From Escherichia coli (GTDB taxonomy: Bacteria > Pseudomonadota > Gammaproteobacteria > Enterobacterales > Enterobacteriaceae): a DNA stretch of 64,000 nt. The stretch lies in the NCBI RefSeq assembly GCF_041886205.1, contig NZ_CP169030.1; one strand, given 5' to 3'. Positions 61,201 through 64,000 of the stretch are shown in pieces; position 1 is the stretch's first letter; each line of letters opens with the position of its first letter. The position numbers are program-made.

Positions 61201-64000
61201 CAGGAATGATAATGTCATCATTAGCTAGTAGAAAACGTATTTCCTCTTGCTCACAGTCTAACACATATATATCCGGCAACACATCGGTCTTCACCACCTG
61301 ACAAGGGCGCTCATCAATCTCCCAGTTATAATCAGTGCGAAAACACTCATGCTTTCGAAATAACGTTTCCAGCGCCCACTTGAAGTGGGCGCTATCTACA
61401 TGCTGAGAAAAAATGCATGTAAAATGCTCATGGTAGTTACTCCTTTTCTTATCCTTTAAGGAATGGAATAAAAACCCCTGTTGACTTGGTGTTAGCGGTA
61501 ACTGCTTACGTGTGTCCATCTTATTACATGGAAAATCTCCAGAGGTATTATCCATAACCATCACCTTATTATCGGATTTATAGATTATATAACATGATTA
61601 TTCTAAATGGCACACCTATCCTCAACTATAGTTTTTTATTGCGTATTCATATAATCATATTGCATTTTATCACTTACAGGAATATCCCCAAAAAATCCTT
61701 ATATTCTGATTACATGTTTTTCTTCAATGAATTAGATTCTGTCTGTAAGCAAAAACATGTAAGTCATGCAGTACATACATGATGTAGCGGGTATGAATTG
61801 ATACAGCCACCACATAGAAAATAATGCGTAATTCCCATTTACATAAAAACCGTTGTATTGTAAATTCCTCTTAAATATTGCCAAAACAACAGATACACAG
61901 ATACACAGATACACAGATACACAGATACACAGATACACAGATACACAGATACACAGATACACAGATACACAGATACACAGATACACAGATACACAGATAC
62001 ACAGATACACAGATACCATTCAGGATGGGGGGAAACATGGATAAGTTCAAAGAAAAAAACCCGTTATCTCTGCGTGAAAGACAAGTATTGCGCATGCTGG
62101 CACAAGGTGATGAGTACTCTCAAATATCACATAATCTTAACATATCAATAAACACAGTAAAGTTTCATGTGAAAAACATCAAACATAAAATACAAGCTCG
62201 GAATACGAATCACGCTATACACATTGCTAACAGGAATGAGATTATCTAAATGAGGATTGATATATTAATTGGACATACTAGTTTTTTTCATCAAACCAGT
62301 AGAGATAACTTCCTTCACTATCTCAATGAGGAAGAAATAAAACGCTATGATCAGTTTCATTTTGTGAGTGATAAAGAACTCTATATTTTAAGCCGTATCC
62401 TGCTCAAAACAGCACTAAAAAGATATCAACCTGATGTCTCATTACAATCATGGCAATTTAGTACGTGCAAATATGGCAAACCATTTATAGTTTTTCCTCA
62501 GTTGGCAAAAAAGATTTTTTTTAACCTTTCCCATACTATAGATACAGTAGCCGTTGCTATTAGTTCTCACTGCGAGCTTGGTGTCGATATTGAACAAATA
62601 AGAGATTTAGACAACTCTTATCTGAATATCAGTCAGCATTTTTTTACTCCACAGGAAGCTACTAACATAGATTCACTTCCTCGTTATGAAGGTCAATTAC
62701 TTTTTTGGAAAATGTGGACGCTCAAAGAAGCTTACATCAAATATCGAGGTAAAGGCCTATCTTTAGGACTGGATTGTATTGAATTTCATTTAACAAATAA
62801 AAAACTAACTTCAAAACATAGAGGTTCACCTGTTTATTTCTCTCAATGGAAAATATGTAACTCATTTCTCGCATTAGCCTCTCCACTCATCACCCCTAAA
62901 ATAACTATTGAACTATTTCCTATGCAGTCCCAACTTTATCACCACGACTATCAGCTAATTCATTCGTCAAATGGGCAGAATTGAATCGCCACGGATAATC
63001 TAGACACTTCTGAGCCGTCGATAATATTGATTTTCATATTCCGTCGGTGGCATCTGATCACTCGAACCATGCCGACGCTTACTGTTATAAAACATTTCGA
63101 TGTAATCAAAAATATCGCTGCGAGCTTCTTCCCGCGTTCCATAGATCTTTTTCTTTATCCGTTCACGCTTCAGCAACTGGAAAAAGCTTTCTGCAACCGC
63201 ATTATCGTGGCAGTTACCGCGACGGCTCATGCTGCTACGATAATGCCTGCGTGGAAAGCTCCTTTCATTCACTGAAAGTGGAATGTCTCCATGGAGAATA
63301 CTTTATCAGCCGGGAAATAATGCGGGCAACGGTGTTTAATTATATCGAATGTGATTACAATCTCTGGCGACGGCACAGTTGGTGTGGCGGTCTCAGTCCG
63401 GAACAATTTGAAAACCAGAACCTCGCTTAGAGCAGTGTCCATATTACGAGGGTAGGATCAGTCGTTTCTTTCGCGGTAACTTTATATGATCGCTGTGTAC
63501 CTGCATCGAGAGAAGAAATCCAGGATGTATTCAACACTGAGTTCACAAGCTCTGTAGCTATTAAGTTAGTATTATTTACGTTTACGATACATGTTATTAT
63601 CGCAGGATCTTTATCTTGGTAGTGATACTGCGAGTGGATACACCCCCACTCAGTATCTTCTATAACTATGGCTTTTGGTTCTTCAGGCATCATACCTTCC
63701 ATAACACGTTCTTGATGGATACGTAACTTGTAGTACTTCTCTGGAGATGAAGAAATTTCAACGAGTACAGATTGTAGATGTACGAAGCCTAGAAATTTAA
63801 AACACTCGGATTTTGTAGAGGATTTTAATGATAAAGTCCAGATAACAAACACGTTATTGGAACCATCACCATAATTTTTAGTGTCAATCTTATCTACCAG
63901 CTCCTCGTTGATTAACATAGACTGATTTAGCAACTTCCGCTTCACGCCCTGAGCGGACTGTTATCGCTCTTTAGACACAGTTCCACTAGGGGGGAGGATC

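What the first reader, a model, noticed from the sequence alone, without database searches (positions are those of the whole stretch)
63000..63430. Two IS3-family transposase remnants meeting head-to-head at the same homologous position
A minus-strand fragment ([13 protein letters not shown]...) and a plus-strand fragment ([13 protein letters not shown]...) both begin at the same conserved transposase motif and abut at ~63230, giving a quasi-palindromic junction in which the same bases are open in both directions. This unusual geometry implies recombination or nested insertion and deletion between two inverted, diverged IS copies at the island border.
Basis: seen in the sequence. Interest (0 to 1): 0.35.

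Follow-up and report, generated by a model that had tools for sequence, protein, structure and literature searches.

The report
IS-remnant deletion scar beside clbA
Just after the colibactin gene clbA lie the dead tail ends of two different IS3-family insertion sequences, fused back-to-back by a small deletion; this is an ordinary scar of mobile-element decay, useful at most as a lineage marker.

Summary
Window 62982-63235 (minus strand) is the last 254 bp of a 1229-bp IS3-family element, here called ISX. It is 99.6% identical to intact plasmid copies. Window 63230-63460 (plus strand) is the last 231 bp of an IS3 variant, 97-98% identical to intact copies. The two overlap in a 6-bp microhomology, TGCTGC (63230-63235). 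Their cut points lie 6 codons apart in the transposase alignment, so the conserved GxC(H/Y)DNA motif faces itself as a 45-nt, 71% inverted repeat.

The arms are two different IS species (40% amino-acid identity), not diverged copies of one IS.

This layout (W-type) is rare. It occurs in E. coli draft assemblies and one K. pneumoniae-like context, and in none of 5,426 complete E. coli genomes. The usual border (N-type, in Nissle and K. pneumoniae) has only 69 bp of ISX, then a defective IS407-like element (ISY), then the same IS3 remnant one base longer.

Neither type can derive from the other by deletion alone. The likeliest history is that ISY inserted into the IS3 copy, followed by two independent deletions anchored at ISY's ends.

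Truncated IS3 copies next to clbA are already published. No function is indicated. Interest is low.

The parts
62250..62984 (+). clbA, the colibactin phosphopantetheinyl transferase (244 aa). Its stop codon TGA (62982-62984) is the terminal TGA of the ISX inverted repeat.
   Evidence: ORF. Pfam ACPS and AASDHPPT_N. RefSeq annotation of the Nissle homologue. K. michiganensis clbA homology stops exactly at 62981, and that protein runs 3 codons further.
62982..63235 (-). 3' remnant of ISX, a 1229-bp IS3-family element. It covers ISX positions 976-1229: the right inverted repeat TGAATCGCCACGG... plus OrfB codons Ser244 to the stop at 63000-63002.
   Evidence: 99.6% identical over 251 bp to the intact plasmid copy L002. 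Ends and 3-bp target duplications of intact copies L042 and L043. rve_2 and rve_3.
63230..63235 (.). Junction microhomology TGCTGC, present in both parent elements at the break.
   Evidence: Direct comparison of the window with intact ISX (L002) and intact IS3 variants (L016 and L017). The chance of an overlap of 6 bp or more is about 0.0013.
63230..63460 (+). 3' remnant of an IS3 variant (IS3v). It covers the last 231 bp of a 1258-bp element: OrfB from CCYDNA... to the stop at 63428-63430, then the right inverted repeat ending ...GGGTAGGATCA.
   Evidence: 97-98% identical to intact copies on E. coli and E. albertii plasmids. 90-95% identical to IS3 copies in most E. coli genomes. rve_2 E=5e-19.
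63169..63276 (.). Quasi-palindrome. Arms 63169-63213 and 63232-63276 are made by the conserved GxC(H/Y)DNAxxESFF-coding stretches of the two transposase genes facing each other.
   Evidence: the repeat finder I1: 45 nt, 71% complementary, 18-nt spacer. DNA fold -20.3 kcal/mol, z = -4.7.
63427..63945 (-). Conserved 172-aa ORF (called as 163 aa elsewhere) of unknown function. It lies between the IS3 remnant and the island's right-end repeat, and marks the DNA into which the IS3 copy originally inserted.
   Evidence: ORF. No Pfam match. Present in all W-type and N-type loci.

Best explanation
The structure is a non-functional deletion scar. Steps are marked as shown or inferred.

1. **Shown.** ISX inserted into clbA three codons before its natural stop. 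Its terminal TGA now ends clbA.
2. **Shown.** An IS3 variant (IS3v) sat further right, in the opposite orientation.
3. **Shown.** In the common N-type border, a defective IS407-like element (ISY) abuts IS3v at ...TTTACA|CTGCTGCTACG. Its left end abuts ISX at window position 63050. There is no target duplication.
4. **Inferred.** ISY originally inserted into IS3v at CTGC, which fixed the IS3v break point.
5. **Inferred.** In the N lineage, a deletion anchored at ISY's left end removed everything back to ISX position 63050.
6. **Inferred.** In the window's W lineage, a break at ISY's right end was repaired by microhomology-mediated joining. TGCTGC, 1 nt from that end, was joined to TGCTGC inside ISX. 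ISY, the IS3v head, the ISX head and whatever lay between were lost.

This kind of event is documented for IS3-family elements: transposase-dependent IS excision with an adjacent deletion. The facing conserved motifs, and hence the palindrome, are a by-product of the two cuts falling 18 nt apart in homologous genes.
For: **Parent elements and exact break points:**

**Microhomology:** 6 bp, chance about 0.0013.

**N-type border:** found in Nissle, 275 complete E. coli genomes and K. pneumoniae.

**Neither type derives from the other by deletion alone:**
- W keeps 185 more ISX bases than N.
- N keeps one more IS3v base. This C matches the GGC codon of intact IS3 variants L016 and L017. It does not match the A of ISX.

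**ISY biology:** ISY relatives end TGTAAG...TTTACA and make 4-bp target duplications. The N-type flanks are gtgg and ctgc, so one flank was lost.

**Sister lineages:** SNPs polarised with K. michiganensis show the W and N clades each carry their own derived changes.

**Independent decay:** the IS3v remnants of W and N each carry private substitutions (3 and 2), as expected for orthologous pseudogenes.

**Mechanism in the literature:** IEE/transposase-dependent excision of IS3-family elements gives adjacent deletions from a few nt to more than 40 kb and uses 2-6-nt microhomologies. IEE is present in more than 30% of E. coli assemblies (PMC9943667).
Against: - No genome with the predicted ancestor was found (ISY still flanked on its left by ...GGGCTGC of IS3v). 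A metagenome scan for CTGC plus the ISY left end gave only two unrelated ISY copies. Both species-representative genome scans returned nothing.
- The order of events rests on one base (the C) and on parsimony.
- The asymmetry of the proposed repair is unproven: 1 nt lost on one side and at least 2 kb on the other.
- The roughly 3% coincidence that both ISs are cut near the same motif is left unexplained.
Confidence: 0.5

Rival explanations
1. The ISX/IS3v junction is ancestral, either as in the window or as a one-triplet-longer form GGCTCATGCTGCTGCTACG. It formed in a single microhomology-mediated deletion between divergently oriented ISX and IS3v. In the N lineage, ISY later inserted exactly at this junction (target CTGC) and then deleted 185 bp of ISX from its left end. 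The window lineage never had ISY, or lost one TGC unit by slippage.
For: - The W clade is not nested within N.
- W-type islands keep an ICE-like module (TraG/TraD-like protein). Published work regards such forms as older (PMC8461471; PMC8209727).
- The longer junction would give exactly the observed N-type right flank CTGCTGCTACG after a 4-bp duplication.
- It needs no lost intermediate carrying the IS3v head.
Against: - ISY must have landed precisely on the 4-bp junction. No target preference is seen in ISY relatives, whose duplications are TAGT, GCTA and GTAC.
- The window junction itself cannot yield the N flank without an extra A-to-C change or a triplet gain or loss.
Confidence: 0.3
2. 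Structure-driven centre deletion. ISX and IS3v once lay intact and divergent, forming a long imperfect palindrome. Pairing of their best-conserved stretches (the DDE-motif region) in single-stranded DNA brought the two TGCTGC repeats together. Replication slippage or hairpin processing then removed the centre. This would explain why both are cut near the same motif.
For: - The retained arms pair well: 14-16 nearly perfect base pairs within 45 nt at 71%, -20.3 kcal/mol, z = -4.7.
- The TGCTGC repeats sit at the base of that stem. One overlaps the right arm. The other begins 17 nt after the left arm ends.
- It accounts for the roughly 3% coincidence of near-homologous cut points.
Against: - The elements are only about 56% identical overall, so a kilobase-scale hairpin is implausible. 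A 14-bp stem closing a loop of 2 kb or more is weak.
- On its own it does not explain why ISY in the N-type abuts the very same IS3v base.
- No intact divergent ISX/IS3v pair was found next to clbA in any locus.
Confidence: 0.1
3. The junction has a present-day function, for example a clbA terminator or RNA-stability hairpin, a small RNA, or a cruciform recognised by a recombinase.
For: Only that the hairpin folds better than shuffled sequence and lies about 200 nt downstream of clbA.
Against: - The predominant N-type islands lack the palindrome altogether and still include colibactin-producing strains such as Nissle (producer status from my own knowledge, not tested here).
- There is no terminator-like T-run and no excess of promoter-like sites.
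- There is no Rfam match.
- The remnants accumulate substitutions at about 2%, against about 0.3% in the adjacent clbR-clbA-containing stretch (window 62000-63050).
Confidence: 0.03

Closest known systems
'Two truncated copies of IS3 next to the clbA gene', described for all E. coli pks-island configurations (Auvray et al. 2021, PMC8209727)
   Same: Same locus and same kind of object: IS3-family remnants between clbA and the island's right-end repeat. The IS3 remnant and the first 69 bp of ISX are orthologous to those in Nissle and K. pneumoniae.
   Different: The common arrangement has a defective IS407-like element between a 69-bp ISX stub and the IS3 remnant, all reading rightwards. The window instead has 254 bp of ISX fused directly to the IS3 remnant, which gives the divergent quasi-palindrome. 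Whether that paper distinguishes this variant was not checked beyond the text searched.
IS excision with adjacent deletion in IS3-family elements (IEE/transposase-dependent microhomology-mediated end joining; Kusumoto et al. 2011, as cited in PMC9943667)
   Same: One deletion end is anchored at an IS terminus, the IS is lost together with flanking DNA, and the join uses a microhomology of a few bases (6 bp here).
   Different: Here the event is only inferred from a scar. The presence of IEE, or of an active ISY-type transposase, in the ancestral host is unknown.
IS-mediated adjacent deletion that retains the IS (intramolecular transposition), the classical source of truncated neighbours of IS elements
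   Same: It explains the N-type left junction: the ISY left end abuts ISX at 63050 with no target duplication.
   Different: It does not explain the window's junction, because no IS end remains at the join.
Central deletions of long DNA palindromes in E. coli (SbcCD and replication-slippage literature; from my own knowledge)
   Same: The outcome is the outer parts of two inverted homologous units retained with the centre gone.
   Different: The units here are only about 56% identical, so they never formed a true palindrome.

Membership tests
IS3 family (minus-strand arm, ISX) | DDE transposase with an rve-type catalytic core | tested here: met
   The arm hits rve_2 (1.4e-14) and rve_3 (1.9e-11), the C-terminal part of the core. 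It is 99.6% identical in DNA to an annotated IS3-family transposase gene.
IS3 family (minus-strand arm, ISX) | Terminal inverted repeats beginning 5'-TG and ending CA-3', with a 3-4-bp target duplication | tested here: met
   Intact copies L042 and L043 have ends TGAATCGCCACGG...CCGTGGCGATTCA and the duplication AGA. The window keeps the right end only, at 62982.
IS3 family (minus-strand arm, ISX) | Two overlapping ORFs (orfA and orfB in the -1 frame) in a 1.2-1.5-kb element | tested here: met
   The intact copy is 1229 bp, with orfA in frame 0 and orfB in frame 2, overlapping. The slippery site itself was not examined.
IS3 family (minus-strand arm, ISX) | A complete, potentially autonomous copy in the window | tested here: not met
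   Only positions 976-1229 are present. There is no other ISX fragment in the 64 kb.
IS3 itself or an IS3 isoform (plus-strand arm) | High nucleotide identity to IS3 and the IS3 right end ...GGGTAGGATCA | tested here: met
   97-98% identical to intact 1258-bp copies L016 and L017, which have the IS3-type ends TGATCTTACCCAGC...GGTAGGATCA. 90-95% identical to the IS3 copies of most E. coli genomes. RefSeq labels such copies 'IS3-like element IS3 family transposase'. An ISfinder assignment could not be run.
Nested IS insertion (one IS sitting inside another) | Both halves of the interrupted IS flank the inserted IS, with a target duplication | tested here: not met
   Neither N-terminal half exists in the window. 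The flanks of the ISX remnant are AAT and TGC, so there is no duplication.
Hybrid IS formed by homologous recombination between two copies | A colinear N-terminal/C-terminal chimera joined in the homologous register | tested here: not met
   Two C-terminal parts diverge from the join. The join is 6 codons out of register and lies in a 6-bp microhomology unrelated to the protein alignment.
Microhomology-mediated deletion scar | Each flank is colinear with its parent up to the join, and a short shared sequence is present once at the join | tested here: met
   ISX matches through 63235 and IS3v matches from 63230. TGCTGC is shared.
Intrinsic terminator or structured RNA | A GC-rich stem followed by a T-run, or a match to a curated RNA family | tested here: not met
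   No terminator-like site at the palindrome. No Rfam hit at E<=1.

The most novel reading that the evidence does not exclude
The window's border may be the footprint of a clean, transposase-triggered IS excision with adjacent deletion. If so, the W/N dimorphism polarises the early history of the colibactin element. A common ancestor would have carried ISX, an IS3 copy and an IS407-like element downstream of clbA, at the place where K. michiganensis still has a radical-SAM gene. Alternatively, the quasi-palindromic ISX/IS3 junction may have been a structure-specific target that attracted the IS407-like element.
Probability: 0.12. Interest if true: 0.3.

Novelty: already known. Interest (0 to 1): 0.12.

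Why it matters
It matters little for biology. IS remnants at the edges of pathogenicity islands are commonplace, and truncated IS3 copies beside clbA are already in the literature.

There are two practical uses:
- **Lineage marker.** The W junction (CGACGGCTCATGCTGCTACGATAATG) and the N junctions are simple k-mer markers. They separate a minor, ICE-associated pks lineage, seen in both E. coli and a K. pneumoniae-like background, from the dominant lineage.
- **Gene loss.** The scar marks where the E. coli/K. pneumoniae-type island lost the DNA that follows clbA in K. michiganensis, including a radical-SAM gene. It also shows that the canonical 244-aa ClbA ends at an IS-supplied stop codon.

Tried and rejected
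- **Species-representative genomes.** I scanned them for the clbA/ISX junction and for ClbA relatives. Both scans returned nothing, so no outgroup borders came from there.
- **Predicted ancestor in metagenomes.** I scanned metagenome contigs for the ancestral left flank of ISY (CTGC+TGTAAGTATCCC...). It gave only two unrelated ISY copies.
- **W junction in complete E. coli genomes.** None of 5,426 has it. The two apparent hits (H58, H59) are convergent IS3/ISX neighbours, not colinear with the query.
- **Reciprocal fragments in the window.** I looked for ISX or ISY fragments that an inversion would leave. There are none, so an inversion within the window is rejected.
- **'Mini-IS' reading of the ISX arm.** The arm ends in TGAGCCGTCGCGG, which matches the ISX inverted repeat at 9 of 13 positions. 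I rejected this reading because the flanks AAT and TGC show no target duplication. It would also make the 6-bp identity with ISX beyond the pseudo-end a 1-in-4096 coincidence.
- **Possible ISX break hotspot.** A second ISX remnant is cut 9 bp away (L056). I did not count it as evidence, because the exact-ORF look-up could only find cuts close to that methionine.
- **Gene conversion of the IS3 remnant.** Resident IS3 copies could have converted it, but W/N differences are private single changes on both sides, so this is rejected.
- **Element names.** RefSeq and PLSDB annotation gave only 'IS3 family transposase' for ISX and ISY.

Full report
**Context.** The window is a colibactin (pks/clb) island.
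- clbB lies at 51935-61564 (minus strand). The ACAGATAC tandem repeat lies at about 61880-62010.
- clbR is followed by clbA at 62250-62984.
- The left end of the window carries a KAP NTPase, a Tn3-family transposase and a TraG/TraD-like coupling protein. This is an ICE-associated form of the island, like configurations 1C/1D of Auvray et al. (PMC8209727).
- The right-end attachment repeat CCAGTCAGAGGAGCCA would lie about 165 bp past the window end, judging from sister loci. The finding therefore sits 0.7-1.2 kb inside the island border.

**Check of the observation.** It holds.
- The minus-strand ORF 63000..63272 and the plus-strand frame 63230..63430 both match the C-terminal integrase-core models: rve_2 at 1.4e-14 and 5e-19.
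- The repeat finder reports arms 63169-63213 and 63232-63276, 45 nt and 71% complementary.
- The DNA hairpin folds at -20.3 kcal/mol, z = -4.7.
- Both strands are open over 63047-63272.

**What the two arms are.**
- *Left arm, 62982-63235.* It is 99.6% identical to the last 254 bp of a 1229-bp IS3-family element (ISX) found intact on plasmids of Salmonella, Kosakonia, Pantoea and Klebsiella. Intact copies end TGAATCGCCACGG...CCGTGGCGATTCA and make 3-bp duplications.
- *Right arm, 63230-63460.* It is 97-98% identical to the last 231 bp of 1258-bp IS3 variants on E. coli and E. albertii plasmids, and 90-95% identical to ordinary IS3 copies.
- *Relationship.* The two elements share 40% OrfB identity and about 56% DNA identity. 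They are different IS species, not diverged copies of one IS.
- *Cut points.* ISX is retained from Ser244. IS3v is retained from the Cys aligned with ISX Asn250. This is a 6-codon offset, not an identical position.

**The junction.**
- Intact ISX continues ...GGCTCATGCTGC|CCTCC. The intact IS3 variant reads ...AAGGGC|TGCTGCTACG. The window reads GGCTCA[TGCTGC]TACG.
- The 6-bp shared TGCTGC (63230-63235) has a chance expectation of about 0.0013. It marks an illegitimate, microhomology-mediated join.
- The microhomology is unrelated to the protein homology. It codes Gly-Ser in antisense in ISX and Cys-Cys in IS3v.

**Comparison with other pks-positive genomes.** There are two border types.
- *W-type (the window).* It occurs in every locus carrying the window's exact ClbA or its exact downstream 163-aa ORF.
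  - Most of these loci are next to E. coli ldtA/cobTSU.
  - One (L003) is next to a flank shared with K. pneumoniae and absent from E. coli.
  - The type is absent from all 5,426 complete E. coli genomes.
- *N-type.* It is found in Nissle 1917, CFT073, 275 complete E. coli genomes and K. pneumoniae at several integration sites.
  - It has ISX only up to window position 63050. A 946-bp defective IS407-like element (ISY) follows, and then C+TGCTGCTACG..., the same IS3v remnant.
  - ISY's exact OrfA is indexed in 23,848 collection blocks, against 126 for the W-type ClbA. W is therefore a minor lineage.

**Which came first.**
- Full-length ISY relatives are 1207 bp, end TGTAAG...TTTACA and make 4-bp duplications. 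The N-type flanks (gtgg and ctgc) are not duplicated, so a flank was deleted.
- W keeps 185 ISX bases that N lacks.
- N keeps one IS3v base that W lacks. This C fits the GGC codon of intact IS3 variants and not the A of ISX.
- Neither type is therefore a simple derivative of the other.
- SNPs polarised with K. michiganensis make W and N reciprocally derived sister clades: three changes on the N stem and one on the W stem.
- The IS3v remnants carry private substitutions on both sides.

**Preferred history (inferred, confidence about 0.5).**
- ISY inserted into IS3v at CTGC.
- The N lineage lost everything from ISY's left end back to ISX 63050. This is a classical IS-adjacent deletion.
- The W lineage lost ISY and its left neighbourhood by a break at ISY's right end. 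The break was repaired through TGCTGC, 1 nt from that end, and the TGCTGC in ISX.
- This matches documented transposase/IEE-dependent excision of IS3-family elements, which produces adjacent deletions and uses microhomology (PMC9943667).

**Rivals.**
- *ISX/IS3v junction older (about 0.3).* ISY later landed exactly on the junction. This needs an unexplained precise hit and either a base change or a TGC-unit change.
- *Hairpin-assisted centre deletion (about 0.1).* It would explain the near-homologous cut points. It does not explain why ISY shares the same IS3v break point.
- *Present-day function (about 0.03).* There is no terminator, no promoter excess and no RNA family, and the dominant N-type lacks the palindrome.

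**Side result.**
- K. michiganensis clbA (84% identical, 251 aa) aligns with the window up to 62981 and then continues VSF-stop. A radical-SAM gene follows it.
- ISX therefore inserted three codons before the natural clbA stop and supplies the present TGA.
- The IS scar occupies the place where that downstream gene lies in the relative.

**Known or new.**
- Auvray et al. state that two truncated IS3 copies lie next to clbA in all E. coli configurations.
- Wami et al. describe the ICE-linked structural classes.
- The scar is thus a known kind of object at a known place. The fused, divergent W-type geometry is a minor structural variant with value as a lineage marker only.
- Interest 0.12; novelty: already known.

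Noticed in passing
window 62979-62990: The clbA stop codon TGA (62982-62984) is the first three bases of the ISX terminal inverted repeat. K. michiganensis clbA aligns up to 62981 and then encodes three more residues (VSF) before its own stop. The canonical 244-aa ClbA is therefore an IS-truncated form.
   Followed up: yes
L044/L045/L046 5770-6651 (K. michiganensis), versus window 62985 onward: A radical-SAM gene lies directly downstream of clbA in K. michiganensis. It is absent from the window and from the N-type islands, where the IS scar takes its place.
   Followed up: partly
L003 7900-12735, versus L013: One W-type border sits next to a chromosomal flank (ABC1-like, GGDEF and hydrolase genes) that is shared with a K. 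pneumoniae contig and absent from 5,426 complete E. coli genomes. The rare W-type lineage therefore occurs in at least two host backgrounds.
   Followed up: partly
L056 3958-4249: An unrelated ISX remnant is cut at ISX position 967, only 9 bp from the window's break at 976. It is directly preceded by the right end of another ISX copy. The look-up was biased towards such cuts, so this is not evidence of a hotspot.
   Followed up: partly
window 63011-63020 and 63220-63229: An exact 10-nt inverted repeat, TGAGCCGTCG/CGACGGCTCA, links the subterminal part of the ISX right end to the internal site where ISX is cut. The internal TGAGCCGTCGCGG matches the ISX terminal repeat TGAATCGCCACGG at 9 of 13 positions. 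It could be a pseudo-end or a transposase-binding mimic.
   Followed up: no
window 2013-9949: The window's left end carries a KAP-family NTPase (3118-4266), a Tn3-family transposase (4231-7215, minus strand) and a TraG/TraD-like coupling protein (7742-9949), ahead of the clb genes that lie further right. This ICE-like module is absent from the classical Nissle-type island.
   Followed up: partly
window 63427-63945 (minus strand): A 172-aa ORF with no Pfam match is conserved between the IS3 remnant and the island's right-end repeat in all pks loci examined. It is shorter (132-141 aa) in N-type islands. Its function is unknown.
   Followed up: no
L015 8263-9413: One K. pneumoniae genome has an IS (DDE_Tnp_1 family transposase, 326 aa) inserted between clbR and clbA. 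The clbR product there is 73 aa instead of 70.
   Followed up: no
L051-L053, contig ends at about 4276-4443: Several E. coli draft contigs with an N-type border break inside ISY. This suggests additional ISY-like copies in those genomes.
   Followed up: no
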